Shown piece by piece: positions 1 to 61,963 of a stretch of DNA of 64,000 nt (position 1 is its first letter; the number at the start of each line of letters is the position of its first letter). The translations under genes were made by a program, and so were the position numbers. The stretch is from Thermoanaerobaculia bacterium (GTDB lineage Bacteria; Acidobacteriota; Thermoanaerobaculia; UBA5066). The notes under the pieces are model-generated. The model worked only from the letters and a program-made list of their open reading frames with translations, searched no databases and was not told the origin of the DNA. Where the stretch lies: positions 64,001-128,000 of the forward strand of contig CAWFJJ010000024.1 in NCBI GenBank assembly GCA_963816185.1. Direction: 5' to 3'.

Positions 1-2276
1 GGCGTGCCGGAGAGGACGCCCGCGGCCGACAGGGTCAGCCCGGCCGGGAGCGTCGAGGATGTCGTGAACGTCGCCGGCGTGTGCGTGCCGACGCCGGCCT
101 GGGTGAACGTCTGGCTGAACGGCGCGTCGACGGTGCCCGTCGTCGTTCCGGGGTTCGAGACCGTGATCGTCTGGCAGGAGATCACGAGCGTGTAGGTCGC
201 GCCCGTGCCCGTGCAGCCGTTCGCGTCCGTCACCTTGACGACGATCGGGAACGTGCCGTTCTGTCCCGGCGTGCCCGAGAGCGTTCCGTCCGCCGCGAGC
301 GTCAGGCCGCCCGGGAGCGTCGAGGACGTCGTGAACGTCGCCGTGCCGGCCGCGCCGGTCTGCGTGAACGTCTGGTTGAAGGGGGCGTCGACCGTGCCCG
401 TCGTCACGCCCGGGTTCGTGATCGTGATCGTCGGGCAGACGGTCACGAGGCTGTACGAGGTCGCGCCCGAGCAGCCGGCGGCGTCGGTCGCGGTGACGAC
501 GATCGGGAAGGTGCCGCCCTGCGTCGGCGTGCCCGAGAGAACGCCGGCCGAGAAGGTCATCCCGGCGGGCAAGGCGCCCGTCTCCGTGAGCGTGTAGGGC
601 GACGTCCCGCCGCTCGCCGTGAACGTCACGGGGCCGTACGGCGAGCCGACGGGGCCCGAGGCGAGCGTCGGGGGCGCGACGGTGATCGTGACGCCGTTAC
701 ACGTCACGGTGACCACGTAGTCCTGGCTCCCGACGCAGCCGCCGACCGAATCGGTCGCCGAGATCGTGATCGGGAACGTCCCGGTCTGGGTGGGCGTCCC
801 GTCGAGAGTGGCGCCGGTGAAATTCATGCCCGTCGGCAAGGAGCCGGCCTCGGCGAACGTGTAGGGCCCCGTTCCGCCGCTCGCCGTGAACGTCGTACTC
901 GGGAAGGGTGAGCCGGCCAGGACGGTCGGCAGCGAGCTCGGCGAAAGCGTTATGGACGTCCCCGAGCAGGCCACGACCACGAGGTAGTCGCGGCTCGCCG
1001 TGCAGCCGTTCGAATCCGTGACGGTGACCGTGATCGGGAAGCTCCCGGTCTCGGTCGGCGTGCCCGCGAGCGTGTCGATCGAGAAGCTCATCCCGTTCGG
1101 GAGGGCGCCCGTCTCGGAGAACGTGACGGAGCCGATGCCGCCTGTCTGCGTGAACGTCGTCGCGGGGTACGGGGTGCCGGTCGTTCCCTGCGGGAGCGTC
1201 GCGGGAGACAGGGTGATCGACTGGCAGCTCACGACGAGCGTGTACGTCGCGCTCGTCCCCGTGCAGCCGTTCGCGTCCGTGACGGTGACGCCGATCGGGA
1301 ACGAGCCGGTCTGACCGGGCGTGCCCGACAGCGTCCCGTTCGCCGCGAGGGACATTCCCGACGGGAGCGTCGACGCCGTCGTGAACGTCGCGCCGCCGAT
1401 CGCGCCCGTCTGCGTGAAGGTCTGGCTGAACGCGGTGCCGATGGTCGCGGTCGCCGTCGCGGGGTTCGTGACGACGATCGTCTGGCAGCCGATCGAGAGG
1501 TTGTAAGTCGAGCTCGTGCCCGTGCAGAGGTTCGCGTCCGTGACCGTCACGACGATCGGGAAGAGGCCGGTCTGGGTCGGCGTTCCCGCGAGGACGCCGT
1601 TCACGGCGAGATTCAGCCCGGCCGGAAGCGTCGACGCGGTCGTGAATGTCGCCGATCCGATCGCGCCGGCCTGCGTGAACGTCTGGCTGAACGCCGTACC
1701 GGCCGTTCCGGCGGCCACGGCCGGGTTCGTCACCGTGATCGTCTGGCAGGCGATGACGAGGTGGTACGTCGCGCCGCTGCCCGTGCAGCCGTTCGCGTCG
1801 GTCGCCGTCACGAGGATGTCGAAGCCGCCCGCCTGCGTCGGCGTGCCCGAGAGGACGCCGTTCGCCGCGAGCGTCATGCCGATCGGAAGGGCGCTCGCCG
1901 TCGTGAACGTCGTCGCCCCGACGCCACCCGCCTGCGTGAACGTCTGGCTGAAGAAGACGTTTGCCGTGCCCGTCGCCGTCACGGGGTTCGTCACGGTGAT
2001 GGTCTGGCAGGAGATCACGAGCGTGTACGTCGCGCCCGTCCCCGTGCAACCGCTCGCGTCGGTCGCGGTCACGGTGATCGGGAAGGTGCCCGGCTGGGTC
2101 GGCGTGCCCGAGAGCGTCCCGTTCGGAGCGAGCGTCAGGCCGGCGGGCAGCGGCGACGCCGTCGTGTACGTCTTCGTCCCCGTGCCGCCGGAGGACGTGA
2201 AGGTCTGGCTGAACGGCACGTTGACCGTGCCCGACGCCGTCAAGGGGTTCGTCACCGTGATCGTGCTCGTGCACGC
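1..2276 (-). repeat. Intragenic tandem repeats, ~261-bp period (Ig-like domains)
   Basis: Repeat starts near 2274, 2010, 1749, 1488, 1227, 968, 702, 438 and 177; recurring DNA words such as gtgcagccgttcgcgtc and gtgaacgtctggctgaa. Confidence 0.85.
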
Positions 2277-2756
2277 CGGGACCCAGTAGCCCGAGATGTC
2301 GATGATGAAGTCGGCCGCCCCCGCCGAGACGTTCGCGAGCGCGACGGTACCCGTGTTGTCGCTCGCAAGGGCCACGATCGTGTTGCTCGCGCGGGTCTTG
2401 CCCGCCGAGAAAGCCAGGACCAGCGTCGGGGGTGCCGCCGCATCGCCCGCATAGAGCTGCGCGTAGCCCATTTCCGCCGGCGAGACGACGGTGAGGTTGA
2501 CGGCCAGGCCTAGGGCGGTCGGCGGCACGCCGCAGGCTCCCGTGAGCGTGAAGAGACGTGTCTCGTTCGGATTCAGGGCGGGGCCTCCCAGAGGGTCTGC
2601 CGGGTTCCGCGTGTCGACCGCTCGGCAGGGAGAGATCGTCATGAGGGCTTGGCCCCCGGCCGCGGAGAGAGGGAGCGGCAGGGAAAGCAGCGCCAGCGCG
2701 ACGACGAGAAATCCCGGACGGGGAAGTGAACGGTCCTCGCGGTCGAGCAGTCTCAT
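1..2756 (-). CDS. Large secreted/surface protein (partial, runs off the window) with an N-terminal acidobacterial 'PCRxxDTR...GPAL...CGVP' domain and at least 9 tandem ~87-aa putative Ig (He_PIG-like) repeats
   Basis: Not in the ORF track because it has no stop in the window. Manual translation from ATG 2756 (RBS AGGAAAGGG) gives a signal peptide, then PCRAVDTR..GPAL..CGVPPTA, then repeats of CQTITVTNP..FSQTFTQ..GG..LP.GxTL..NGxLSGTPTQ.G.FPI.VTATDANGCTG. The frame at 2756 matches the frame at position 20. Confidence 0.85.
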   Translation of the reverse strand, partial: MRLLDREDRSLPRPGFLVVALALLSLPLPLSAAGGQALMTISPCRAVDTRNPADPLGGPALNPNETRLFTLTGACGVPPTALGLAVNLTVVSPAEMGYAQLYAGDAAAPPTLVLAFSAGKTRASNTIVALASDNTGTVALANVSAGAADFIIDISGYWVPACTSTITVTNPLTASGTVNVPFSQTFTSSGGTGTKTYTTASPLPAGLTLAPNGTLSGTPTQPGTFPITVTATDASGCTGTGATYTLVISCQTITVTNPVTATGTANVFFSQTFTQAGGVGATTFTTASALPIGMTLAANGVLSGTPTQAGGFDILVTATDANGCTGSGATYHLVIACQTITVTNPAVAAGTAGTAFSQTFTQAGAIGSATFTTASTLPAGLNLAVNGVLAGTPTQTGLFPIVVTVTDANLCTGTSSTYNLSIGCQTIVVTNPATATATIGTAFSQTFTQTGAIGGATFTTASTLPSGMSLAANGTLSGTPGQTGSFPIGVTVTDANGCTGTSATYTLVVSCQSITLSPATLPQGTTGTPYPATTFTQTGGIGSVTFSETGALPNGMSFSIDTLAGTPTETGSFPITVTVTDSNGCTASRDYLVVVACSGTSITLSPSSLPTVLAGSPFPSTTFTASGGTGPYTFAEAGSLPTGMNFTGATLDGTPTQTGTFPITISATDSVGGCVGSQDYVVTVTCNGVTITVAPPTLASGPVGSPYGPVTFTASGGTSPYTLTETGALPAGMTFSAGVLSGTPTQGGTFPIVVTATDAAGCSGATSYSLVTVCPTITITNPGVTTGTVDAPFNQTFTQTGAAGTATFTTSSTLPGGLTLAADGTLSGTPGQNGTFPIVVKVTDANGCTGTGATYTLVISCQTITVSNPGTTTGTVDAPFSQTFTQAGVGTHTPATFTTSSTLPAGLTLSAAGVLSGT

Positions 2757-8612: not shown

Positions 8613-10300
8613 GCCGACTGGCCGTTCGGAGTAGGAAGGTTCGCGGGCGCGACGACGGCGGGCACGAGCTCGGCGCTCTTCTTGTCGACGCCCTCCTGCC
8701 GCGCGTGCTTGTGGGCGCGGGCGGCACGGATGAAGTCCTTGAAGAGCGGGTGCGGCGCGGTGGGCTTGCTCTTGAACTCCGGGTGGAATTGGCAGCCGAG
8801 GAACCACGGGTGGTCGGACAGCTCGATCATCTCCACGAACTTCCGGTCGGGCGACATGCCGCAGAACGTCATCCCGGCGTCGCGCAGGACCGGCAGATAC
8901 TCCTGGTTCACCTCGTAGCGGTGGCGGTGGCGCTCCCAGATCTGCGCCTCGCCGTAGGCGCGCCGCGCGAGGGTGCCCTCCGCGAGGTCGCACGGGTACT
9001 TGCCGAGCCGCATCGTCCCGCCGAGGGCCTCGACGCCGAGGAGGTCGCGCAGCATGAAGATGACCTTGTGCGGCGGGTTCGGCTCGAACTCCGTCGAGTT
9101 CGCGTCTTTGAGCCCGCAGACGTTCCGCGCGAACTCGATGACGGCGCACTGCAGGCCGAGGCAGATTCCGAAGAACGGGACCCTCGTCTCGCGCGCGAGG
9201 CGGATCGCCTTCAGCTTGCCTTCGATGCCGCGGCGTCCGAAACCGGGTCCCACGAGGATCGCGTCCGCGCGGGCGAGCGTCTCGGGGAAGCCGGCCGTCT
9301 CCAGCTCCTCGGAGTCCACGAACGAGATCCTGACCTTCACGTTGTTCGCGATGCCTCCGTGATGGAGCGCCTCGTTCAGGGATTTGTAGCTGTCGCCGAG
9401 CTGCACGTACTTGCCGACGAAGGCGATCGTGACCTCTTCCTGGGGATTCTTGACGCGGTTGACGATCGAGTCCCACTTCGCGAGATCGCGGTCGTAGTGA
9501 GGAAGGGAGAGGTAGTCGAGGAGGATCTCGTCGAGGCCCTCGCGTGCGAACGCGAGCGGCACTTCGTAGATCGTCGGGACGTCACGTGCCGTGATGACCG
9601 CCCGCTCCTCCACGTTGCAGAAGAGCGCCATCTTCTTCTTCATCTCCTCGGGAATCGAGCGGTCGGCACGGCAGAGGAGGATGTCCGGCTGGATTCCGAT
9701 CGAGAGAAGCTCCTTGACGGAGTGCTGCGTGGGCTTCGTCTTCAGCTCGTCGGACGCCGCGATGTGAGGCACGAGGGTCAGGTGCACGTTGATCGCGTTG
9801 CCGCGGCCCACGTCCTGCCGGAACTGGCGGATCGCTTCGAGAAACGGGAGCGACTCGATGTCGCCGACGGTGCCGCCGATCTCCACGAGGACGACGTCGT
9901 TGTCGCCGGCCACGCGGCGCATGCAGTCCTTGATCTCGTCCGTGATGTGCGGGATGACCTGAACGGTCTTCCCGAGGAAGTCTCCGCGGCGCTCCTTTTC
10001 GATGACAGACAGATAGATTTTTCCGGTCGTTATGCTGTTCGCCTTGCCCGTGATGGCGGAGGTGAAGCGCTCGTAATGCCCGAGGTCGAGATCGGTCTCG
10101 GCCCCGTCGTCGGTCACGAAGACCTCGCCGTGCTGAAACGGCGACATCGTGCCGGGGTCCACGTTCAGGTACGGGTCGAACTTCATGAGGGTGACGCGGA
10201 ACCCCCGCGCTTCCAACAGCGCGCCCATGGACGCCGCGGCGATGCCTTTGCCGAGGCCGGAGACCACGCCGCCGGTGATGAAAATGTATTTGGTTCCCAC
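8609..10300 (-). CDS. pyrG: CTP synthase
   Basis: [53 protein letters not shown]; GTG start with GGAGG. Confidence 0.97.
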
Positions 10301-10301
10301 G

Positions 10302-11276
10302 CTACACCTCCCGTACGGCCAAGAAGTTGCTGGTTCGGTTCGTGTCAGGCTGTTTGAGTTTCTTCTCATATGCGGCGGCCCCTGTTGCGGCCGCCGATAG
10401 AAGGAATTTCTTTCCCGGCTGTCCGACGTCAAGGGCGCTCTTTGCGCGCCGCGCAGCGGTCTTTGACCCTTGACTTCGGGCAGCCGGGGAATATCCGATT
10501 CTCTTCTTGCCTTCCTCTTTCTCTCTCTTTCTAAGAATCTCTTCCACTCTTCGAGCGTCCTCGATCGTGTCGACGCCGATGGAGTCGCTCGCGGCATCCA
10601 GCACGGCCATCGCCATCCCCGCCGCGAGCGCGCGGAGCTGCTCGAGGCTCTCGGCGCGCTCGAGCGGATGGGGCGGCAGGCTCGTCCAGCGCCGAAGCGC
10701 GTCCTTGCGGTAGCCGTAGAGGCCGAGGTGCTTGAGCGTCGGGAGGGAAGGCTCGGGTCTCCGGCGGTAGGGAAGCGCCGCACGCGAAAAGTAGAGGGCT
10801 CGCCCGTCGTCGCCGCGCACGACCTTGACGTTGTTCGGATTCGCGATCTCGGCCGGATCGTCGATGGCGAGAGCGACCGTCGCGAGCGGAAACTCGGGAT
10901 GCTCGAGCAGGAATCCCGCCACGCGGTCGAGGTTCTCGGGATCCATGAGCGGCTCGTCGCCTTGCACGTTCAGGACGACGTCCACGTCGAGGTCCCTCAC
11001 GGCCGCGAAGACCCGATCCGTTCCGGACGGAAGCGCCGGGTCCGTCAGGACCGCCCGTCCCCCCGCCGTTTCGACCGTGCGGGCGATCCGCGCGTCGTCG
11101 GTCGCCACGAGCACGAGCGAGACGCGCTTCGCCTGAAGGGCCCGCTCGAGAACCCGTACGACCATGGGGGTTCCGGCGATCGGATGGAGAGGTTTCCCCG
11201 GGAAGCGCTCCGCCCGATAGCGGGAGGGGATGACGGCGACGACGTGAAGCGGGGAGGGGGTCGCCAGCCGGGGCAC
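10302..11276 (-). CDS. kdsB: 3-deoxy-manno-octulosonate cytidylyltransferase with an ~80-aa C-terminal extension
   Basis: [52 protein letters not shown]. Start uncertain (GTG 11276 or ATG 11291). Confidence 0.92.
10368..10490. repeat. Structured palindromic element, copy 1
   Basis: Hairpin cggcggcc/ggccgccg plus a long stem closing gTCAAGGG...CCCTTGAc; 82/107 ungapped identity (manual count) to 58965-59071. Confidence 0.85.
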
Positions 11277-11386
11277 GTTCGATCTTAACATCGCCTCGCG
11301 TGGGCGCGTCAACGTCGTCACCGGCCCGCGCTCGCGGGTCGATGACGACTTAAACAGGATGGAAGAAAGGGATTCGGGGGAGCCCG

Positions 11387-13640: not shown

Positions 13641-14390
13641 TCACTCCGAGAGGATCTTCGTGCCTTCCGGCGGGACGAGCGCGAAGTCCGAGTCAGGGCG
13701 CTTCGGCCCGGACATCTTCTGCGTGAACGTAAACGTCGTGCGGTTGCCCCCGGCATCCACGAGAATCAGCCTCTTCACCTCGCCCGAGGCTGCCGCGACG
13801 AGCGTGACGGACTTCGGATCCCCGCCGGCGCGAGGGGTCAGCGTGAGCTCGGTCAGGCCGGCGTCCCGTGCGGCGGCGCGCGCCGCATAGCGCGAGAGGA
13901 GCGAGTCGGTCGACTCCAGAAACACGATCGGCAGGCGCGCGATCTCCGCGGGGCTCAGCGTGCGGACGACGAGCTGCCGGTCCGCCGCGACGAACTGGCG
14001 GCCGGCCCTGCCGTCGAACGTGAACACTTTCCCTTCGGGTCCGTCGTAGTCGAAACGCACGCGGTCCGGTGACTGGAGGATCAGTCGCCCGGTCTCCGGC
14101 GCGGTTTCCGCGAAACCTGCCGGCGCGTACGTCTGCACGAACGTGCAGCTCACGGAGGGGGAGGACGAATAAGCTGTTCGGATGCTCGTGAGAAGCGCTC
14201 GCGCGTCGAGCGACGCGACAGCCGGCGGCGCTGGCGTCGCGGCCGGCTTCGCCGGCCGTGCCTCGAAGGGAAAGAAGAATAGGAGGAAAAAAACGAAGAC
14301 TGCGGCGCGCTGCGCGCGCCGTGCTTCGAAAGGAAGAAGGACCGGCGATTCGGCTTGGCGCCGGCAGCGCCTGAGGGCGGGTGCGTTCAC
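13641..14390 (-). CDS. Outer-membrane lipoprotein carrier, LolA-like
   Basis: Signal peptide; FVQTY..ETGRLILQSPDRVRFDY..FDG; DAGGNRTTFTF; FALVPPEG. Start uncertain. Confidence 0.75.
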   Translation of the reverse strand: MNAPALRRCRRQAESPVLLPFEARRAQRAAVFVFFLLFFFPFEARPAKPAATPAPPAVASLDARALLTSIRTAYSSSPSVSCTFVQTYAPAGFAETAPETGRLILQSPDRVRFDYDGPEGKVFTFDGRAGRQFVAADRQLVVRTLSPAEIARLPIVFLESTDSLLSRYAARAAARDAGLTELTLTPRAGGDPKSVTLVAAASGEVKRLILVDAGGNRTTFTFTQKMSGPKRPDSDFALVPPEGTKILSE

Positions 14391-26773: not shown

Positions 26774-27931
26774 ATGTCGAATGCCGGCCTCCGCGCGCTC
26801 ATCCTCGCCGGAGGCAGCGGCACGCGGCTTTGGCCGCGTTCCACGAACGAACGGCCGAAGCCCTTTCTCGCCCTGACGGGCGGCGAGTCGCTCCTTCGAG
26901 AGACGTTCCGGCGCGCGACCGCGCTCGCCGGGGCCGGGAACGTCTTCGTCTCGGGACGCGCGGCGCACGCGCCGCTGCTTGCCGCCGAGCTGCCCGAGGT
27001 GCACCGGTCGCGCTTCGTTCTCGAGCCGGTGCGGCGCAACACCGCGCCCGCGATCGCCCTCTCGGCGCTTGCCGCTTCGGAGGACGCTCCGGACACCGTC
27101 CTCGCCGTCCTGCCGTCCGATCAGGCCGTGCGCGACGAAGCGGCGTTTCTCGCCGCCCTCCGCTCGGCGGCGGAGGCGGCCCGGACGCAAGACGCGTTCG
27201 TCACGCTCGGGATCCCGCCCACGCGGCCCGAGACCGGATTCGGGTACATGGAAGTCGAAGAACAAGAAGAGATTTCTGCTGAAGACGAAGAAGAGAAAGA
27301 GGAGATTTCTCCGAATGGGAAGAGGGGAAACGAGAAGGGGACCGGGGAATCGAAGATTTCTGAGAATGGAAACAGGGAAGGGAGAGCCGCGGCCTTGCGC
27401 GTGGTGCGCTTCGTGGAAAAGCCGACGCTTGCGCGAGCCCAGGAGTTTCTAGCCTCCGGCCGCTTCTTCTGGAACGCCGGCATCTTCGTGTTCCGGACCT
27501 CATACCTTTTCGAAGAAATGGAGAGAGCCTGTCCCGACATCCTGAACATCGCACGCCGCGCGTATGCGGCTCGAAAAGAGGGGGAATTCACAGAAATCTT
27601 CTCTTCGTCCCCTTCCGTGTCCTTCGACGTCGCGGTCATGGAGAAGGCGAGGCGGGTAATCACCGTCCCGTGCGCGTGCGGGTGGAGCGACCTGGGCTCG
27701 TGGGAAGCCGTTTTCGAATTCCGGGGCGGCGCTCCCGGCACAAACGTGCTCGAGGGACCCGCGGCTGCGGTCGAGGGATCCGGCAACCTCGTTCTGGCCG
27801 AAGGACGGCCGGTGCGCGTCGTCGGCCTTTCCGACGTCGCGGTCGTGGACTCCAAGGACGGCGTTCTCGTCATGCGCCGCGGCGCGTCCGACGCGCTCCG
27901 GAGGAGCGTGGAGGAGGGCCTGTCGCGATGA
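26774..27931 (+). CDS. manC: Mannose-1-phosphate guanylyltransferase with an internal ~40-aa E/K-rich insertion
   Basis: ILAGGSGTRLWP.S, EPVRRNTAPA, PSDQ, TLGIPPTRPETGFGY, FVEKP, WNAGIF, WSDLGSW. Confidence 0.9.
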   Translation: MSNAGLRALILAGGSGTRLWPRSTNERPKPFLALTGGESLLRETFRRATALAGAGNVFVSGRAAHAPLLAAELPEVHRSRFVLEPVRRNTAPAIALSALAASEDAPDTVLAVLPSDQAVRDEAAFLAALRSAAEAARTQDAFVTLGIPPTRPETGFGYMEVEEQEEISAEDEEEKEEISPNGKRGNEKGTGESKISENGNREGRAAALRVVRFVEKPTLARAQEFLASGRFFWNAGIFVFRTSYLFEEMERACPDILNIARRAYAARKEGEFTEIFSSSPSVSFDVAVMEKARRVITVPCACGWSDLGSWEAVFEFRGGAPGTNVLEGPAAAVEGSGNLVLAEGRPVRVVGLSDVAVVDSKDGVLVMRRGASDALRRSVEEGLSR

Positions 27932-45576: not shown

Positions 45577-46832
45577 TAGGAGGAATCCTTTGCTCCCTCT
45601 CGTGTCGAGTCGTGGCCCGGCTCATGAGAGGATGACATTTCTTCGAATGGGTGTGCGTTCGACACGCCCTCGAGTTGCACCGAGGCGGCACCCGCCGCCG
45701 TGACTCCACTCACCCCTCTAAGAAGATCTTCATACACCCTCGCGGTTCGCTCCGCCGCGCGCCGCCAAGTGAATTGCGCTGCCCGCTCCCGTCCCCTCTT
45801 TCTAAGAGATTCTCTCTTCTCTTCATCCCCGAGCAGCGCGTTCAGGGCTGTCGCGAGGGACGCGACGTCGTGCGGATCGAAGAACACCGCCGCGTCGCCC
45901 GCAGCCTCGCGGAGGGCGGGGAGGTCCGAGCACGCGACGGGCGTGCCTGCCGCCTGCGCCTCGAGGACCGGCAGCCCGAAGCCTTCCGCAAACGAGGGCA
46001 GAACGAGCGCTCGCGCGCCCGCGAGGAGCGGCGGCACGTCGGCGTCCGGCACGAAGCCGATGACCTTTGCGCCCTCGGGCAGCGTCCGCCCGGGTCCGAC
46101 ACCCGCGAGGACGAGAGAGAGCGATGGATTCGCCGCGCGCACGCGTGGCCACGCGAGAAGCAACCCGTCGAGGTTCTTGTGCGGTTTGTCGTTGCCGAGA
46201 AAGAGAAGATAAGGAAGATAAGAACGAAGATAAGGAGAAGATTCTTTGAAAGGAAGAACGGAAGACTGCACCTCGGCCACACGACGCGCGCCGGCGCTGC
46301 TTTCTTCCCCTTCTAAGAAGAATCTCTCCTCCACTCCATTTGGAATTACTTCGATCTTGAGGTTACGAGAGGGTCCGAAAGCAAGAATTTCCTTCTTCGT
46401 GGCTTCCGACACCGCGATCACTCGAGCGGAGAGGCGCAATGCGCGGCCGATCATCCAGCGCGCGTACACGCGCTTCGCTCTCGCCGCGTGCTCGGGCCGG
46501 GAAAGGTGCATGAGGTCGTGGATCGTGACGACCGTCGCGCGCGGCGGAAAGAGTGGAACGACGTAGTGCGGAGCATGGAAGAGGTCCGGCCGTGCTACAG
46601 AGATCGCCTGCCTGACCGCCACGAGCTCGCCGATCGAGTAATGTGCGGCCGCGCACGTCGTCGTCGTCACGGCTGCGGGCACGAGCGCCTCGTCGCCCGG
46701 AAGAACGAGCGCTTGGAGTTCGAAACGGTCCAGTCCCGCGAGGCCGCCGAGAAGGCCCCGGATATACGTGCCGATCCCGAAGTCGCGCGCCTTGCGCGCG
46801 TCCACGAGGATGAGCTTCCTTCGCTCCGTCAC
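45576..46832 (-). CDS. Glycosyltransferase family 4 with an internal insertion and C-terminal extension
   Basis: GTGA overlap; GIGTY, TIHDL, KPHKNL, PSFAEGFGLPVLEAQAAGTPV. Confidence 0.88.
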   Translation of the reverse strand: MTERRKLILVDARKARDFGIGTYIRGLLGGLAGLDRFELQALVLPGDEALVPAAVTTTTCAAAHYSIGELVAVRQAISVARPDLFHAPHYVVPLFPPRATVVTIHDLMHLSRPEHAARAKRVYARWMIGRALRLSARVIAVSEATKKEILAFGPSRNLKIEVIPNGVEERFFLEGEESSAGARRVAEVQSSVLPFKESSPYLRSYLPYLLFLGNDKPHKNLDGLLLAWPRVRAANPSLSLVLAGVGPGRTLPEGAKVIGFVPDADVPPLLAGARALVLPSFAEGFGLPVLEAQAAGTPVACSDLPALREAAGDAAVFFDPHDVASLATALNALLGDEEKRESLRKRGRERAAQFTWRRAAERTARVYEDLLRGVSGVTAAGAASVQLEGVSNAHPFEEMSSSHEPGHDSTREGAKDSS

Positions 46833-58235: not shown

Positions 58236-61200
58236 TCACCGGAAGTCGTGGCTGGGAAGATCGGGCAGCGAGGGAAGCGGCCAGAACCGCTCGGCCCTCA
58301 CCGAGACGTTTCCGCCTTCCTTCTGGAGCTTTCCTTCCACGACGAGGCCTCCCGAGCCCACGATGACCGATCGATGCTTCCGGAAGAGGTCGGGGCGCAC
58401 GATGGCTTGCACGATGCCGCTTTCGTCCTCGAGCGACAGGAAGACGAAGCCCTTCGCCGTGCCCGGCCTCTGCCTCACGATGACGGCGCCCGCGGTTTTC
58501 ACCCGTTCGCCCTCGGGCACGTTCCGGAGCTCCCCGGCCGACAGGATCGACCGCGCCGCGAGCGCCGGACGCAGATGCTCGAGGAGGTGCGGGCCAGCCG
58601 TCATGTCCGTCGCGCGATAGTCGGCGGTCGTCTCCTGAATGGCTGACATCTCGGGAAGAGGAGATTTCTGCGAAGAGGAAGAAAGAGGGAGAGATTCATA
58701 GAGGGTGCCGAGGGGATGGGAGATCTCCGCGACTTGCCAGAGGGCCGTGCGGCGGGAGACGCCGAGGGACAAGAGGGAACCGGAGTAGGCGATCAAGGTC
58801 ATCTCGTCGGGACGGAGCCGGCAGCGGCGCTGAAAGTCCGCCACATCCCGGAACGGTCCTCCGCGCGTTCTTTCGGCTTCGATGGCTTCTCCCGTCGTCT
58901 GCTTCAGCCCCTTGATGAAACGCATGCCGAGACGCACGGAGAGAGGACCATGATTTGGTTGCTTATATGCGTCGGCCGCTGATGCGGCCGACGACAGGGG
59001 CGAATCTGTCCCCGGCGGGCCGCTTTCAAGGGCGCGCTTCGCGCGCCGTGCAGCGGTCGAAGACCCTTGACAGCGCTCCGCCGTCGGACGCCTGGCCGCC
59101 GGGATACCCCGCTCCTTCGCGCGTGAACTCGCTTCGCTCAGACAGCACGCGCGTGCGTCGCGAGGTACCCCGGCGTCCCGCGCCCTATTCATATTCGAAG
59201 AAAAATCTTCTTCTTTCTCTTCCTCTCTCTCTACCCGGCAATCCCATCCCGAAAAGTTCACGTCGATCGGCAGGACCGCAGTGCCCTTGCGCTGGATGTC
59301 CTTCAGGATCGTCGCGGGGTGGTAGAAGCCCATCGGCCACGCGTTCAGGAGGCACGCCGTGAACGCCGCCGGGTGGTGCGCCTTCAGCCACGCGCTCGCG
59401 TACGCGATGAGCGCGAAGCTGGCCGCGTGCGACTCGGGGAAGCCGTAGAGCGCGAACGACGTGATGGACTTGACGATCTGGTCCTGCGCGGGCCCCGTGA
59501 TGCCTTTTTTCGCCATGCCCGAGCGCAGCCGCTCTTCAATCGCGCCCATGCGCTCCTCGGAGCGCTTGAAGCCCATCGCGCGGCGCAGCTCTTCCGCCTC
59601 GCCGCCCGTGAAGCCCGCGGCCACCATCGCGATCCTGAGGAGCTGCTCCTGGAAGAGCGGTACGCCGAGCGTGCGCTTCAGGATCGGCTCGAGGCACGGG
59701 TGCGGATACTCGACCGGCGCCTTGCCCTGCCGCCGGTCGAAGAACGGGTGCACCATCCCGCCCACGATCGGCCCCGGCCGGATGATCGCGACCTGCACGA
59801 CGATGTCGTAGAAGACCTTCGGCGCGTGGCGCGGGCAGCGAAGCCATCTGCGCGCGGCTCTCGACCTGGAAGAGGCCGATCGTGTCGGCTGCGCGGAGCA
59901 GCTCGTACACCTTCGGGTCGTCCGCGGGCAGGTGCGCGAGGTCCACGTCCACGCCCTCGTGCGCCTTGATCAGGGGCAGCATCTTCTCGATCGCGCCCAG
60001 CATCCCGAGGCCGAGGAGATCCACCTTCACGATGCCGAGGTCCGCGCAGTCGTCCTTGTCCCACTGGATGACGACGCGCCCTTCCATCGCCGCGGGCTCG
60101 AGCGGCACGACCTCGGACAGCTTTCCCATCGCCACGACCATCCCGCCCGAGTGCTGTCCGAGGTGGCGCGGCAGGCTCTGGACGCGCATGAAAAGCTTCC
60201 CGAAGTGCGCGACGCGCGGGTGTGCGGGGTCGAAGCCGGCGGCCGCCATCTCCTTCGCGAGATCGGCCGCGCCGTCGCGGTACTCGCCGAAGCTCCACGC
60301 CCCGAGGTGCTTCGCGATCGTGTCCACCTGCTCCGGCGAGAAGCCCAGGGCCTTCGCCATCTCGCGCGCGGCCGAACGGTCGCGGTACGTGATGACGTTC
60401 GCCGTCATCGCCGCGCCGTCGGCGCCGTACGTTTTGTAGACGTGCTGGATCACCTTCTCGCGCGGGTCGCCCGAGGGCAGGTCGAGGTCGATGTCGGGCC
60501 ACTCCCCGCGCTCCTCCGAGAGGAAGCGCTCGAAGAGAAGCTCCATCTTCACGGGATCCACCGCCGTGATCGAGAGCGCGTAGCACACGGCGCTGTTCGC
60601 GGCCGAGCCGCGCCCCTGCACGAGGATGTGCTCCTTCTTGCAGAAGTTCACGATGTCCCAGACGATGAGGAAGTAGCCCGCGAGGTCCAGCTTCGCGATG
60701 AGGTCGAGCTCCCGCTGGATCTGCGCCTGCGCCTTTCCCGTGAGCGGCCGGAAGCGCGAGCGCGCGCCTTCCCACGTGACGTGCCTGAGGAACGACGACG
60801 GCGTCTCGCCCGGTGGCAGCGGGTACGCGGGGAAGCGGTAGCCGAGGTCCGCGAGCGTGAAGGAAAGGCGCCCGCGCGAGCTCGGCGCTCCTTTCGAGGA
60901 CGCCCGGCAGATCCGCGAAGAGGGCCTCCATGTCGGCCGCGGACTTCAGGTGGCGCTCGCGCCCCGCGTGCAGCTTCGTGCCGGCCGCGTCGAGGTGCGT
61001 GTGGTGGCGGATGCACGTGAGAGCGTCGAAGAGGTCCTTGTCCTTCCGCGCCGCGTAGCGCGCGCCGTTCGTCGCGAGGACCGGCAGGCGCGCGGCGAGA
61101 GCGAGATCGAGGAGCGCGCGATTCAGGTGCTCCTCCGCGCGCAGGAAGTGGCGCTGCAGCTCCACGTGAAGGCGCCCCGGGAAGAGCGCCGTGAGGCGGT

Positions 61201-61963
61201 CCAGCTCGCGGCGCGCCGCGTCGAAACCGCCCGTATCGCGCGACGTCAGCGCGCGCGTCACGACGCTCTCCTCGCCGCCCGTCAGGACGTGCAGCCCTTC
61301 CGCGTGCGCGGCGACCTCCTCCCACGTCGCGGCCGCCTGCCCCTTCGGCTTCCCTGCGGCGGCGGCGGTGAGAAGCGAGCAGAGGTTCCGGTAGCCCTTC
61401 TGGTTCTCGGCGAGCAGCGTCAGACGGGGATAAGAAATTCCTGCTGGGAGGGGAGGGGGAACGATTCCGAGAGGACCGGGAAGATTTTCTTCGAATGAGT
61501 GTGTGGGCGATTCGCCGCTTCTGCCCTCTTCCTCTTTACCTTTCAAAGAAATCTTGTTGCTCCATCCCCCGACGAGAGCCGGATGCGGAGCAAGAACGAC
61601 CTCCGCCCCGACGAGCGCTTTCACCCCCGCCGCCTTCGCTGCCTTCCAGAAGCGCGGGGCGCCGGAGAGGCCGTTCGTGTCCACGAGCGCCATCGCGGGA
61701 AGGCCGAGCGCCGCCGCACGCGCGACGAGGTCTTCCGGCAGAGACGACCCGTTCAGGAACGAGAACGCCGAGGCGACGCGCAGCTCGGCATACGGCCTCG
61801 CGCGCTTTGCGGGAGCGGGCGGCCGCGCGAACGCCCGCACGCGCGCTTTCTCCTTGCGTGCGCCGGGAGACGTGTACGCGCCGGGCTGCCCGGGTTTGAC
61901 GATCGGCCCGAGCATGTCGCGTCCCGGCGGCCCGCCGTGCTTCCCGCTGCCGCGCCCGTCCAT
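58236..61963 (-). CDS. dnaE2: Error-prone DNA polymerase DnaE2, split by two frameshifts (near 60870 and 59835), with two in-frame insertions
   Basis: YAEL..S.FSFL.G, QGRGSAANS.VCY, FERF, PDIDLD, PRHLGQHSGG, QVESRAQM, YGFPESH, PMGFY, RQRPGTAKG, terminal SHDFR. Confidence 0.88.
58965..59083. repeat. Structured palindromic element, copy 2 (inside dnaE2)
   Basis: Hairpin cgtcggccgc/gcggccgacg and TCAAGGG...CCCTTGA stem with the same spacing as copy 1. Confidence 0.85.

What the first reader, a model, noticed from the sequence alone, without database searches (positions are those of the whole stretch)
10368..10490. Palindromic element present twice and read in the same frame in KdsB and DnaE2
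Seen: 10368-10474 aligns without gaps to 58965-59071 (82/107 identical by manual count). Both copies have ATATG, a GC hairpin with a compensatory change (cGGcggcc/ggccgCCg versus cGTcggcc/ggccgACg), and 56 nt later a TCAAGGG...CCCTTGA stem enclosing three mini-hairpins whose loops differ while the stems hold. The outer stems differ in sequence but still pair. On the minus strand both encode similar peptides: [34 protein letters not shown] in the KdsB tail and CQGSSTAARRAKRALESGPPG..LSSAASAADAYKQ in DnaE2. Established: Rickettsia palindromic elements insert in-frame into proteins. Inference: an analogous non-autonomous element or structured RNA in this lineage.
Basis: partly seen in the sequence, partly recalled or inferred. 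Interest (0 to 1): 0.8.

Follow-up and report, generated by a model that had tools for sequence, protein, structure and literature searches.

The report
Palindromic repeats read inside genes
A hairpin-forming DNA repeat of about 130 bases occurs roughly fifty times in the genome of an uncultured soil acidobacterium, mostly between genes, but several copies sit inside genes and stay in the reading frame, much like the selfish palindromic elements known from Rickettsia.

Summary
In detail: 10368-10474 and 58965-59071 match 82/107 without gaps, while the next best gapless match in the window is 50/107. They are two of 52 loci of one repeat family (E1) in this 5.09-Mb genome. E1 has a 5' GC hairpin followed by a long covarying stem. 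That stem encloses a GC-rich core which is inverted in about a quarter of copies. E1 was found in only two genera of one Thermoanaerobaculia family: 13/27 genomes there and 0/273 in 20 other families. Most copies are intergenic. About eight are read through by ORFs, including the KdsB tail and a DnaE2 loop. Selection for frame is evident at the dnaE2 hotspot, where 13/14 congeners carry different inserts that are all multiples of three and stop-free. The kdsB copy reads through to the native stop, which overlaps the pyrG start. I found no Rfam match, no strand asymmetry, no RAYT and no parent transposon. The shared reading frame is weak evidence, because only two frames are usually open. The two dnaE2 frameshifts are most likely assembly indels. 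Verdict: a new RPE-like or REP-like coding-tolerant repeat family. Its means of spread is unknown. This scan has noted the same kind of element on other DNA.

The parts
10360..10492 (+). E1 copy A (element orientation: H1 then big hairpin), lying antisense inside the kdsB tail
   Evidence: nhmmer hit C24:74361-74491 = window 10361-10491, model positions 2-132; alignment with 46 other copies
10373..10396 (+). H1: 5' GC hairpin of copy A
   Evidence: DNA fold of 10364-10494, paired positions 10-33
10414..10488 (+). Big hairpin (BH) of copy A: covarying outer stem, NGTCAAGGG/CCCTTGACN inner stem, 31-nt GC-rich core
   Evidence: DNA fold -43.4 kcal/mol, z -6.4; stem statistics
10499..10545 (-). 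CT-rich tract with an E0-like arm (TTCTTAGAAAG on the minus strand), translated as [15 protein letters not shown] at the end of the KdsB domain
   Evidence: Sequence; junction comparison
10302..11321 (-). kdsB ORF, 339 aa: KdsB domain aa 27-267 (10521-11243), then a 72-aa tail (10305-10520) that reads through E1
   Evidence: ORF list; Pfam PF02348; NCBIfam NF003952 and TIGR00466
10298..10311 (-). GGAGGTGTAGCGTG: pyrG Shine-Dalgarno, kdsB native stop TAG (10302-10304) and pyrG GTG start (10298-10300)
   Evidence: Sequence; the same junction is kept in 8 of 12 congeners compared
58957..59089 (+). E1 copy B, lying antisense inside dnaE2
   Evidence: nhmmer hit C24:122959-123079, model positions 3-123, extended to the model ends; alignment
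58968..58996 (+). H1 hairpin of copy B (GCGTCGGCCGC/GCGGCCGACG, the compensatory variant)
   Evidence: DNA fold of 58961-59091; H1 variants
59008..59089 (+). Big hairpin of copy B
   Evidence: DNA fold -44.9 kcal/mol, z -3.9 on the + strand and z -5.0 on the - strand
59101..59173 (+). E2: second palindromic repeat family (14 loci in the genome), covarying outer stem around a conserved core
   Evidence: nhmmer census, C24:123101-123173; BLAST hits of copy B's flank
59185..59232 (-). E0-like arm (TTTCTTCGAATATGAATAG) plus a polypurine tract, translated as EREEEKEEDFSSNMN
   Evidence: E0 motif scan; dnaE2 junction
58941..59228 (-). Composite in-frame insert (96 codons: E0 arm + E2 + E1) between WDCRVE and SVRLGMRF of DnaE2, just before the HhH motif
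   Evidence: Junction comparison of 14 congeners; Pfam finger domain aa 45-156 and HHH_6 aa 342-409
58236..61963 (-). dnaE2 (error-prone polymerase), split over three frames by single extra bases at about 59832 and 60874
   Evidence: Frame profile; alignment to G003; contigs of 4 runs lack both bases; NCBIfam NF004225
61480..61555 (-). E0 inverted-repeat cassette read in frame in the N-terminal region of DnaE2 (…NKISLKGKEEEGRSGESPTHSFEENL…)
   Evidence: Sequence; codon-score dip at 61520-61640; a related-strain contig replaces it with a net change of 84 nt

Best explanation
E1 is a lineage-specific, non-autonomous palindromic interspersed repeat. It behaves as selfish or neutral DNA and acts at the DNA level, not as an RNA gene. 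It is modular: a GC hairpin (H1) plus a long hairpin (BH). The stem of BH is kept complementary by paired changes. Its 31-nt core flips in place, probably by recombination or template switching between the stem arms. Copies arise at low-GC purine/pyrimidine sites, often next to or inside another inverted-repeat family (E0), by a mechanism not identified here. Most surviving copies are intergenic. Copies that land in permissive loops, linkers or tails of genes persist only if the whole insert keeps the frame and has no stop. They are then translated into Ala/Arg/Lys-rich linker peptides. In kdsB the frame is kept through to the native stop, which overlaps the pyrG ribosome-binding site and start. 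This probably preserves translational coupling and lets ribosomes melt the hairpin. Shown here: the family, its structure, covariation, core inversion, presence/absence at orthologous sites, and frame conservation. Inferred: mobility, translation of the inserts, and the coupling rationale.
For: 1. Family: 52 distinct loci, 47 near full length.
2. Patchy spread: found in 16 of 24 congeners with about 1 to 40 matches each, and in 0 of 16 genomes of other families of the order. Across the class: 11/16 in genus g1, 2/2 in genus g11, 0/9 in other genera of the family, and 0/273 in 20 other families.
3. Filled versus empty orthologous sites:
 - kdsB: G011 is empty; G000, G012 and G008 are filled.
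 - dnaE2: G003 is near-empty.
 - C24:129966 and C24:152016 are empty in G003 and/or G011.
 - PMT-family gene: E1 is present in G000 only.
4. Structure: Watson-Crick pairing is 0.86-0.94 at 12 of 15 outer-stem positions in 49 G000 copies and 0.90-0.99 at 13 of 15 in 84 copies from other genomes. Shifted controls give 0.13-0.33. Positions 3, 7, 9, 10, 11 and 14 alternate between pair types. H1 shows paired changes, including a matched 1-nt deletion in both arms in 11 copies. Fold z-scores are -3.9 to -10.3.
5. DNA level, not RNA: 21 G.T against 20 A.C mismatches; 9 G.U against 16 A.C on the transcribed strand in 35 copies; 16 sense against 13 antisense between co-directional genes; no Rfam match.
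6. Selection filter: E1 is embedded in codon-adapted ORFs at 3 of 52 loci, against 409 of 2000 random sites. At the dnaE2 hotspot 13 of 14 genomes have inserts that are multiples of 3 and stop-free, from 81 to 348 nt including anchors. Related-strain contigs differ there by net 273, 222 and 84 nt. The copy in the CHAT-domain gene is in frame in G000, G011, G012 and G003. Eight of 12 genomes read kdsB through to the TAG inside GGAGGTGTAGCGTG.
7. Core inversion between orthologous copies with identical outer stems: in the CHAT gene, G000 and G011 differ from G012 and G003; in kdsB, G000 and G012 differ from G008. Genome-wide, 25 copies are forward and 8 flipped in G000, and 44 forward and 23 flipped in other MAGs.
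Against: - No mobilising enzyme was found. PF01797 is absent from G000 and from every high-copy genome, and present in only 4 of 29 genus genomes. No H1-bounded unit contains a transposase. The one 3.5-kb candidate encodes FG-GAP proteins.
- No clean target-site duplication was seen. One locus has a 47-nt imperfect flanking duplication. Another gained a whole E0-E1-E0 composite.
- Copies within G000 are only about 75-93% identical to each other. I saw no identical copies at distinct loci apart from the redundant contig C14. Recent activity is therefore not shown, and loss from an E1-rich ancestor could explain part of the patchiness.
- Translation of the inserts is not shown. The only RNA run laid was contigs, and it may contain DNA.
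- Four of 12 congeners end kdsB early, and G006's E1-bearing kdsB tail has an in-frame TGA. Read-through to the native stop is therefore not obligatory.
Confidence: 0.65

Rival explanations
1. E1 is a functional structured RNA, or an RNA-level cis element (mRNA stabiliser, processing site, terminator), kept because of its fold.
For: The folds are very stable as RNA: -71 to -88 kcal/mol, z -4.8 to -10.1. The stems covary strongly. Many copies lie 8-130 nt from gene ends, as REPs do. The big hairpin is the same on either strand, so a lack of orientation bias does not rule out a simple hairpin role.
Against: There is no Rfam match. There is no G.U excess over A.C, neither overall (21 against 20; 28 against 21 in relatives) nor on the transcribed strand (9 against 16). 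Orientation is 16 sense against 13 antisense. No T-run follows the hairpin in either orientation (alignment). Copy number ranges from 0 to about 40 among congeners, which does not fit a needed RNA. The copies in kdsB and dnaE2 are read through by ORFs.
Confidence: 0.1
2. The copies do not spread by transposition. They arise and move by hairpin-driven replication errors, gene conversion or recombination among pre-existing low-GC inverted-repeat cassettes (E0), which act as fragile, insertion-prone sites.
For: E0 arms are abundant: 290 hits against 0-2 for scrambled motifs, with 38 convergent pairs. The kdsB, dnaE2 and PMT-gene hotspots are E0 cassettes that hold different central cargo in each species. 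One locus shows a 47-nt flanking duplication rather than a short target duplication. The core inverts in place. Both arms of H1 carry matched indels. No transposase was found.
Against: By a strict motif test, only 1 of 52 E1 loci lies inside a recognisable E0 pair, and about 15 of 52 have an E0 arm within 120 nt. Similar E1 copies occur at about 50 unlinked sites and in two genera. That requires some copy-and-paste step.
Confidence: 0.17
3. The encoded peptide is itself the selected unit: a mobile mini-domain that gives host proteins a useful Arg/Ala-rich segment.
For: Five of the six antisense read-through copies in G000 use the frame that gives ...[11 protein letters not shown]...-type peptides. 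The copy in the CHAT-domain gene is kept in frame in four species.
Against: About 37 of 47 near-full copies are intergenic. Copy lengths are spread evenly over the three classes mod 3: 15, 16 and 16. Codon-usage scores are negative across the inserts. G012 reads the orthologous kdsB copy partly in another frame. Core inversion swaps the peptide without consequence for the frame. The host proteins are unrelated.
Confidence: 0.05
4. The in-ORF state is an artefact: long open frames are common in 67% GC DNA, or the assembly is wrong, and the elements are really intergenic or lie in dead genes.
For: dnaE2 is split by two frameshifts in this assembly. Frames -1 and -2 are open in more than half of all copies by composition alone.
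Against: Both dnaE2 frameshifts are single extra bases that are missing from every covering contig in four runs. One of those contigs is a 588-nt piece with only 3 other differences. Congener dnaE2 genes are single ORFs of 1014-1339 aa. Thirteen of 14 hotspot inserts are multiples of 3. Codon-adapted sequence continues on both sides of the copies in the PMT-family and CHAT-domain genes. The kdsB stop is at the conserved position.
Confidence: 0.03

Closest known systems
Rickettsia palindromic elements (RPEs; Ogata et al. 2000, 2002, as summarised in PMC10969869, passages read)
   Same: Both are dispersed palindromic repeats of about 100-150 bp restricted to one lineage. Several families coexist. 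A fraction sits in frame inside unrelated genes and adds a hydrophilic peptide. No partner transposase is known.
   Different: There is no sequence relation or shared taxon: this is a free-living, high-GC soil Thermoanaerobaculia lineage, not an obligate intracellular alphaproteobacterium. A smaller share is in ORFs: about 8 of 50 loci, against nearly half of the 44 RPE insertions in R. conorii. E1 has a two-module build and a core that inverts in place.
CGTC/TGTC-tagged REP superfamily (Di Nocera, De Gregorio, Rocco 2013, PMC3733652; passages and supplementary file 3 read)
   Same: E1's big hairpin starts NGTC-AAGGG and ends CCCTT-GACN. N is T in about 28, A in 9 and C in 8 of 49 copies, and this position is mostly unpaired. 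The stem begins with two A.T pairs. The two tagged arms face each other like a head-to-head dimer. There is no dedicated transposase. That paper lists intragenic copies in dnaE2 of four species, at residues 934-971, 166-246, 128-157 and 175-203, and in R. conorii dnaE.
   Different: Those REPs are 20-40 bp, with stems of 8-9 bp, loops of 4-5 nt and a 3-nt tail. E1's hairpin has a stem of about 22 bp around a 31-nt structured core, plus a separate H1 module. CGTC repeats were not reported from Acidobacteria in the text I read.
Coxiella burnetii QMITEs (PMC5896051, passages read)
   Same: Small hairpin repeats whose insertion at a gene's 3' end supplies the C-terminal residues and the stop. In that paper an in-frame QMITE2 insertion at the 3' end of enhC provides 33 C-terminal residues. 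The KdsB, radical-SAM and cytochrome c tails here are of the same kind.
   Different: The paper describes bacterial MITEs as having terminal inverted repeats with TA termini. Most E1 copies have one H1 end only, and no TA duplication is evident.
E. coli BIMEs (mosaics of REPs) and mycobacterial MIRUs (both recalled from memory, not read here)
   Same: BIMEs are mosaic arrays of palindromic units in alternating orientation with other short motifs, like the E0/E1/E2 composites here. MIRUs sit between genes of operons and carry short ORFs whose ends overlap the flanking genes, which resembles the kdsB-pyrG coupling.
   Different: REPs go with RAYT transposases, which are absent here. MIRUs are tandem minisatellites, not palindromes.
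Small inversions of hairpin loops in chloroplast non-coding DNA and quasi-palindrome template switching (recalled); coding palindromes in Nematomorpha mitochondria (PMC6649704, abstract start seen in the listing)
   Same: A short segment between inverted repeats flips repeatedly and independently. Long inverted repeats are tolerated inside protein-coding genes.
   Different: Here the flip occurs inside translated bacterial genes and swaps one stop-free peptide for another.

Membership tests
Rickettsia palindromic elements (RPE) | Dispersed multi-copy palindromic repeat of about 100-150 bp that folds into a stable hairpin | tested here: met
   52 loci, 120-141 nt; fold z-scores -3.9 to -10.3
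Rickettsia palindromic elements (RPE) | Copies inserted in frame in unrelated protein-coding genes | tested here: met
   KdsB tail, DnaE2 loop, PMT-family transferase, DUF7379-CHAT protein, an unnamed 350-aa ORF, radical-SAM tail and cytochrome c tail. Share is about 8 of 50 loci, lower than for RPEs.
Rickettsia palindromic elements (RPE) | Sequence relatedness to an RPE family, or occurrence in Rickettsiales | not tested
   I held no RPE sequences. The hosts are Thermoanaerobaculia MAGs. I therefore file E1 as 'works like an RPE', not as an RPE.
MITE (miniature inverted-repeat transposable element) | Terminal inverted repeats at both ends | tested here: inconclusive
   Eight loci gave near-full hits on both strands, of which 5 were confirmed symmetric H1-BH-H1' with TTCTGnTAT...ATAnCAGAA ends. 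Most copies have H1 at one end only.
MITE (miniature inverted-repeat transposable element) | Short constant target-site duplication | tested here: inconclusive
   Filled/empty comparisons show a 47-nt imperfect duplication at one locus, a possible TTTCT at another, and replacement rather than simple insertion at the hotspots.
MITE (miniature inverted-repeat transposable element) | A related autonomous insertion sequence with the same ends | tested here: not met
   H1-only fragments have no transposase nearby. H1 scans of five genomes gave one pair at an IS-like distance, and it encloses FG-GAP genes. The genomes are incomplete.
GTAG REP / RAYT system | Palindrome of 20-40 bp tagged by unpaired GTAG | tested here: not met
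   The motif next to H1 is GATAG or ATAT, not GTAG. The element is 120-180 nt.
GTAG REP / RAYT system | IS200/IS605-type Y1 transposase (RAYT) in the genome, flanked by the repeats | tested here: not met
   PF01797 gave 0 hits in G000, and the search rang in 6 of 14 control genomes. It was found in 4 of 29 genus genomes, none of them a high-copy genome.
CGTC/TGTC-tagged REP superfamily | CGTC/TGTC/CCTC tag next to a stem whose first two pairs are A.T | tested here: met
   NGTC-AAGGG...CCCTT-GACN. The N position is paired in only 37-39% of copies (alignment).
CGTC/TGTC-tagged REP superfamily | Stem of 8-9 bp, loop of 4-5 nt, 3-nt tail (Table 1 of PMC3733652) | tested here: not met
   The stem is about 22 bp and the enclosed core is 31 nt. 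No CCA-type tail is seen.
Any Rfam RNA family | Covariance-model match at or near the gathering score | tested here: not met
   Only mir-138 (14.2 bits against 50) and RNaseP-T (12.5 against 60), at E 9.5 and 4.9, in window 10000-11000. Only copy A's region was scanned.
Intrinsic terminator | GC hairpin followed directly by a T/U run | tested here: not met
   The big hairpin is followed by GGGAAATA on one strand and AAGAAGATTT on the other. The terminator scan tool was not run.

The most novel reading that the evidence does not exclude
In this lineage, short low-GC inverted-repeat cassettes (E0) sit in permissive loops and tails of housekeeping genes and act as landing pads. They repeatedly accept, exchange and invert palindromic cargo (E1, E2 and others) while staying in frame. 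This would be a natural engine for swapping peptide segments inside proteins such as DnaE2, KdsB, a PMT-family transferase and a CHAT-domain protein. It would include a 31-nt invertible core that toggles between two stop-free peptides, and it would be driven by an enzyme or repair pathway not yet recognised.
Probability: 0.15. Interest if true: 0.8.

Novelty: new member of a known kind. Interest (0 to 1): 0.55.

Why it matters
Palindromic repeats read in frame inside genes were first presented as a peculiarity of Rickettsia, and a 2024 review (PMC10969869) still treats their wider occurrence as conjecture. This case shows the phenomenon in a free-living, high-GC, uncultured soil lineage, with at least three coexisting families. 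Unusually clean comparative evidence shows that selection keeps the inserts in frame: 13 of 14 species at one dnaE2 loop. The case also adds two features worth testing:
- a core that inverts in place inside translated genes;
- a copy kept open through to a stop codon that overlaps the next gene's start.

Practically, these elements inflate ORFs, create apparent C-terminal extensions and attract assembly errors, so annotators of Acidobacteriota MAGs need to know about them. The recurrence of such inserts in dnaE2 across phyla (PMC3733652) remains unexplained.

Tried and rejected
- Rfam scan of window 10000-11000 at E up to 10: only two chance-level hits.
- RAYT/Y1 transposase: none in G000. Found in 4 of 29 genus genomes, unrelated to E1 abundance.
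- Autonomous parent: H1-only fragments lie beside ordinary genes such as rpsT and a CtaA-like gene. Among H1 matches in five genomes, the only convergent pair at an IS-like distance (G008:C2, 3.5 kb) encloses FG-GAP/ASPIC genes.
- E1 always nested in an E0 pair: rejected. Only 1 of 52 loci by the strict motif test.
- E1 shared in the PMT-family gene by G003 and G012, as the full-length protein matches suggested: rejected on nucleotide inspection. Those genomes hold other cargo in the same cassette.
- Frame bias as evidence of design: rejected. Lengths are spread evenly mod 3, and two antisense frames are open by composition.
- RNA evidence: run X16 is contigs from an RNA library that may contain DNA, so transcription is not shown. 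No run held more than 0.30 of the sampled words. Cover over the E1 stretch itself may come from other copies of the repeat.
- Splicing or ribosomal bypass of the insert: considered and rejected as unnecessary. Removal would not require the inserts to be multiples of three and stop-free.
- Structure prediction of the tailed KdsB and a complex prediction: not run, because they would not decide between the readings.
- Earlier-notes look-up by sequence found nothing for this element.
Full report
**Observation.** Window 10368-10474 and 58965-59071 align without gaps at 82 of 107 positions. Against all other offsets of the window on both strands, the same 107-mer reaches at most 50 identities (mean 29.3, sd 4.6). 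Both copies begin with ATATG and a GC hairpin, and the two hairpins differ by a compensatory G>T / C>A pair. About 50 nt further on, a TCAAGGG...CCCTTGA stem encloses a GC-rich core, and that stem is itself enclosed by outer arms that differ in sequence between the copies yet still pair. On the minus strand both copies lie in long ORFs.
- The first ORF is KdsB. NF003952 scores 282.5 bits against a cut-off of 193, and TIGR00466 scores 193.7 against 155.2. The domain covers residues 27-267 of 339, so the last 72 residues are extra.
- The second is an error-prone DnaE2-type polymerase. NF004225 scores 519.6 and 479.4 bits on two pieces. Pfam finds the finger, HHH_6 and OB domains.

**A repeat family.** BLAST of copy A against the window's own 5.09-Mb, 30-contig assembly gave 52 matches. 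Three rounds of nhmmer gave 64, 100 and 102 hits, which collapse to 52 distinct loci, 47 of them near full length. Two loci lie on contig C14, which duplicates parts of C24 and is probably a redundant strain contig. I call the family E1.

In the orientation of the window's plus strand E1 reads as follows:
- TTCT-N-ATAT.
- Hairpin H1, typically GCGGCGGCTGC-TGAT-GCAGCCGCCG.
- GATAG and a short A/T-rich spacer.
- A big hairpin (BH). It has an outer stem of about 13 variable but complementary bases, then NGTCAAGGG, a 31-nt core, and CCCTTGACN followed by the other outer arm.

The core is built of three short GC stems with variable 3-nt loops. Eight loci gave near-full hits on both strands, and five of them were confirmed as symmetric H1-BH-H1' forms of 155-182 nt. 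Single strands fold far better than shuffled controls. As DNA the energies are -43 to -56 kcal/mol (z -3.9 to -10.3). As RNA they are -71 to -88 kcal/mol (z -4.8 to -10.1). Rfam has nothing: the best hits in window 10000-11000 are at E 4.9 and 9.5, far below the gathering scores.

**Covariation, and at what level it acts.** I anchored on the invariant inner stem and compared 15 outer-stem positions without gaps.
- Watson-Crick pairing is 0.86-0.94 at 12 of 15 positions in 49 unique G000 copies, and 0.90-0.99 at 13 of 15 positions in 84 unique copies from other genomes. Sliding the partner by one or two bases gives 0.13-0.33.
- Positions 3, 7, 9, 10, 11 and 14 alternate between two or three pair types. 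Position 2 is a conserved mismatch.
- H1 shows the same behaviour. Variants include CGGCGGCGGC/GCCGCCGCCG and CGATGGCCGC/GCGGCCATCG, and 11 copies carry a matched 1-nt deletion in both arms.
- Mismatches that would be G.U wobbles on the plus strand (21) equal those that would be wobbles on the minus strand (20). In relatives the counts are 28 and 21.
- When 35 copies are oriented by the strand of the surrounding genes, A.C mismatches (16) outnumber G.U (9).

There is thus no sign that one transcribed strand is the selected object. The palindrome is kept as DNA or on both strands.

**The core inverts.** Relative to H1, the core is forward in 25 and flipped in 8 asymmetric copies of G000. Five loci are symmetric and five were unclassified. 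In other MAGs the core is forward in 44 and flipped in 23. The flip also separates orthologous copies that share flanks and outer stems.
- In the CHAT-domain gene, G000 and G011 are forward while G012 and G003 are flipped.
- In kdsB, G000 and G012 differ from G008.

In-place inversion between the stem arms is the economical reading. In a gene it swaps ...SQGRASRAAQRLKTLD... for ...SQGSSTAARRAKRALD... without changing the frame.

**Distribution.**
- E1 was found in 16 of 24 congeners searched, with about 1 to 40 matches each, and in 0 of 16 genomes of two other families of the order. Those 16 include the unpublished genomes G025 and G030. Without them the count is 0 of 14.
- An even draw of 300 genomes of the class gave 11 of 16 in the window's genus, 2 of 2 in a sister genus, 0 of 9 in five other genera of the family, and 0 of 273 in 20 other families.
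- Public records holding the core pattern are titled Thermoanaerobaculia or Acidobacteriota MAGs, apart from one bin labelled Acidithiobacillales.

These are samples, so 'not found in those searched' is the correct wording.

**Where the copies lie.** Codon-usage scoring of 180-nt flanks gives values near 0 for most copies, against 0.45-0.66 for real genes. A crude gene call places about 37 of 47 near-full copies between genes, typically 8-130 nt from a gene end. Of these, 29 lie between co-directional genes (16 sense, 13 antisense), 3 between convergent genes and 4 between divergent genes. Under a strict test, which requires at least 390 nt of open, codon-adapted frame on both sides, 3 of 52 E1 loci are embedded, against 409 of 2000 random 130-nt windows. 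E1 is therefore depleted from gene interiors but not excluded.

ORFs read through the following copies:
- the KdsB tail;
- the DnaE2 loop;
- a 632-aa PMT-family glycosyltransferase, residues 211-255;
- a 626-aa DUF7379-CHAT protein, residues 186-230;
- an unnamed 350-aa ORF, in sense orientation, residues 71-114;
- the C-terminal tails of a radical-SAM protein and a cytochrome c;
- doubtfully, the start of a beta-lactamase-family protein;
- an H1-only fragment in a loop of a CtaA/COX15 protein.

All six clear antisense cases use one of the two antisense frames that are usually open. Those frames are open in 26 and 30 of 47 copies, and the third in only 2 of 47. Sense frames are open in 1, 18 and 18 of 47. 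Copy lengths fall evenly into the three classes mod 3, at 15, 16 and 16. The element is thus not built to be coding, and the two window copies sharing a frame is roughly a coin toss.

**kdsB-pyrG.** In this genus kdsB ends at a TAG inside GGAGGTGTAGCGTG, which also holds the Shine-Dalgarno sequence and the GTG start of pyrG (window 10298-10311). Between the end of the KdsB domain (...VEEILRK) and ...AEV* lies a hypervariable stretch.
- G011 has none of it (...EEILLAEV*).
- G013, G015 and G009 have 5-12 extra residues.
- G003 has 35.
- G000, G012 and G008 carry E1 there. G008 has two extra H1 units. G012 reads part of the element in the other open frame.

Eight of the 12 genomes compared keep the frame open to the native TAG, and four stop earlier. 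G006 also carries E1 there, but with an in-frame TGA, which I did not examine further. I infer that reading through to the native stop preserves translational coupling with pyrG and lets ribosomes unwind a hairpin of about -70 kcal/mol. This is inference, not shown.

**dnaE2.** The insert lies between WDCRVE and SVRLGMRF, just before the HhH motif. It is a composite of an E0-like arm, a copy of a second family (E2) and E1 (window 58941-59228). Outgroup families have essentially no insert there: their matches to query residues 41-248 and 344-577 abut (the outgroups include G025 and G030, and others such as G035, G033 and G029 show the same). In 14 congeners the segment between fixed anchors is 348, 300, 198, 237, 240, 81, 138, 96, 117, 226, 180, 186, 108 and 126 nt. 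Thirteen of the 14 are multiples of three and stop-free. Only G021 is broken. G008 has a symmetric E1 there.

Congener dnaE2 genes are single ORFs of 1014-1339 aa. In the window the gene is split into three frames by single extra bases near 60874 and 59832 relative to G003. In Logan contigs of three DNA runs and one RNA-library run, every contig covering those places lacks the extra base. One of them is a 588-nt piece that differs from the window at only 3 other letters. The same contigs show related strains whose hotspot differs by net 273 and 222 nt, and whose N-terminal cassette differs by net 84 nt. All three are multiples of three.

**Other empty sites and companion families.** G003's contig C4 and G011's contig C1 are collinear with the window's contig.
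- C24:129966 is empty in both. The G000 insert there is flanked by a 47-nt imperfect duplication.
- C24:152016 is empty in G011. The G000 insert there is a whole composite of an E0 arm, E1 and a degenerate E0 arm.

E0 (arm TTTCTTAGAAGGTGAAGAG) has 290 matches with up to 4 substitutions, against 0-2 for scrambled motifs, and forms 38 convergent pairs. Twenty-nine of the 290 arms pass the strict embedded test. The hotspots in kdsB, dnaE2 (both sites) and the PMT-family gene are E0 cassettes whose arms are translated. One arm encodes PLHLLRNSL in all six genomes compared. Their centres hold different cargo in each species, and only G000 has E1 in the PMT-gene cassette. E2 has 14 loci and is again a covarying stem around a conserved core.

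**No driver found.** PF01797 (Y1 transposase) has no hit in G000, and the same search rang in 6 of 14 control genomes. It occurs in 4 of 29 genus genomes (G014, G018, G020, G044), none of them E1-rich. H1-only fragments and all H1 matches in G000, G007, G012, G006 and G008 gave one convergent pair at an IS-like distance, and it encloses FG-GAP/ASPIC genes. No constant target duplication emerged. These genomes are incomplete (53-95% completeness), so a missing enzyme is not proof of absence.

**Comparison with what is known.** RPEs are the closest in behaviour (PMC10969869, passages read). QMITE-derived C-terminal extensions in Coxiella parallel the tails seen here (PMC5896051, passages read). 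The closest in form may be the CGTC/TGTC-tagged REP superfamily (PMC3733652; passages, Table 1 and supplementary file 3 read).
- That superfamily includes RPE-4 and RPE-6, has stems that begin with two A.T pairs, forms head-to-head dimers, and lacks a dedicated transposase.
- It is reported inside dnaE2 of four species, at residues 934-971 of 1116, 166-246 of 1196, 128-157 of 1153 and 175-203 of 1262.
- E1's big hairpin carries NGTC-AA...TT-GACN but fails the size criteria (stem 8-9 bp, loop 4-5 nt). I therefore record a resemblance, not membership.

Three literature searches found no description of this family or of such elements in Thermoanaerobaculia (listings only, apart from the papers named above). 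Earlier notes of this scan report RPE-like coding palindromes in other phyla. None matched E1 by sequence.

**Verdict.** E1 is a new family of a known kind of element. Three points are of interest:
- the clean evidence that selection keeps nested palindromic inserts in frame at defined hotspots;
- the core that inverts inside translated genes;
- the unknown means of spread.

Noticed in passing
window 59832 and 60874: Two single extra bases split dnaE2 into three frames. All covering contigs of four public runs lack them, so they look like assembly indels, not a pseudogene.
   Followed up: yes
genome-wide; in the window at 27306-27324, 46302-46320, 59185-59203, 10499-10545 and 61480-61555: A low-GC inverted-repeat family (E0, arm TTTCTTAGAAGGTGAAGAG with purine/pyrimidine flanks) has 290 arms in a 67% GC genome. 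It forms cassettes whose arms are translated inside genes and whose centres hold variable cargo.
   Followed up: partly
window 59101-59173 and 13 other loci of the genome: A third palindromic family (E2): a conserved core (…TTCGCGCGTGAACTCGCTTCGCTCAGACAGCACGCGCGTGCG…) inside a covarying outer stem. It is inverted in G017's dnaE2 relative to G012's.
   Followed up: partly
G000 contig C14 (32972-33104 and 41660-41791) against C24 (152016-152148 and 143337-143468): Contig C14 repeats C24 loci with the same flanks, one pair identical and one slightly different. It is probably a redundant strain contig, in line with the 3.4% contamination estimate.
   Followed up: no
window 14239-14334: Two adjacent 33-nt direct repeats (GCGGCGCGCTGCGCGCGCCGTGCTTCGAAAGGA-like) that resemble part of the E1 core. 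This may be a degenerate relative or another small repeat.
   Followed up: no
L044 (G008 kdsB-pyrG junction): Downstream of E1, G008 carries two further tandem H1-like units, all read in frame as …AAYEKSSSPRVAAPAAAEYEKPSSPRAAAPAAAAYEQ…. The H1 module can therefore multiply on its own.
   Followed up: no
L073, L080, L084 and others (record JBLMYG01…): One MAG labelled Acidithiobacillales holds at least 10 E1 cores, like the Thermoanaerobaculia MAGs. The label or the binning of that record is probably wrong.
   Followed up: no
window 1-2300: Tandem 261-267-nt repeats (families D1-D4) at the window's start.
   Followed up: no
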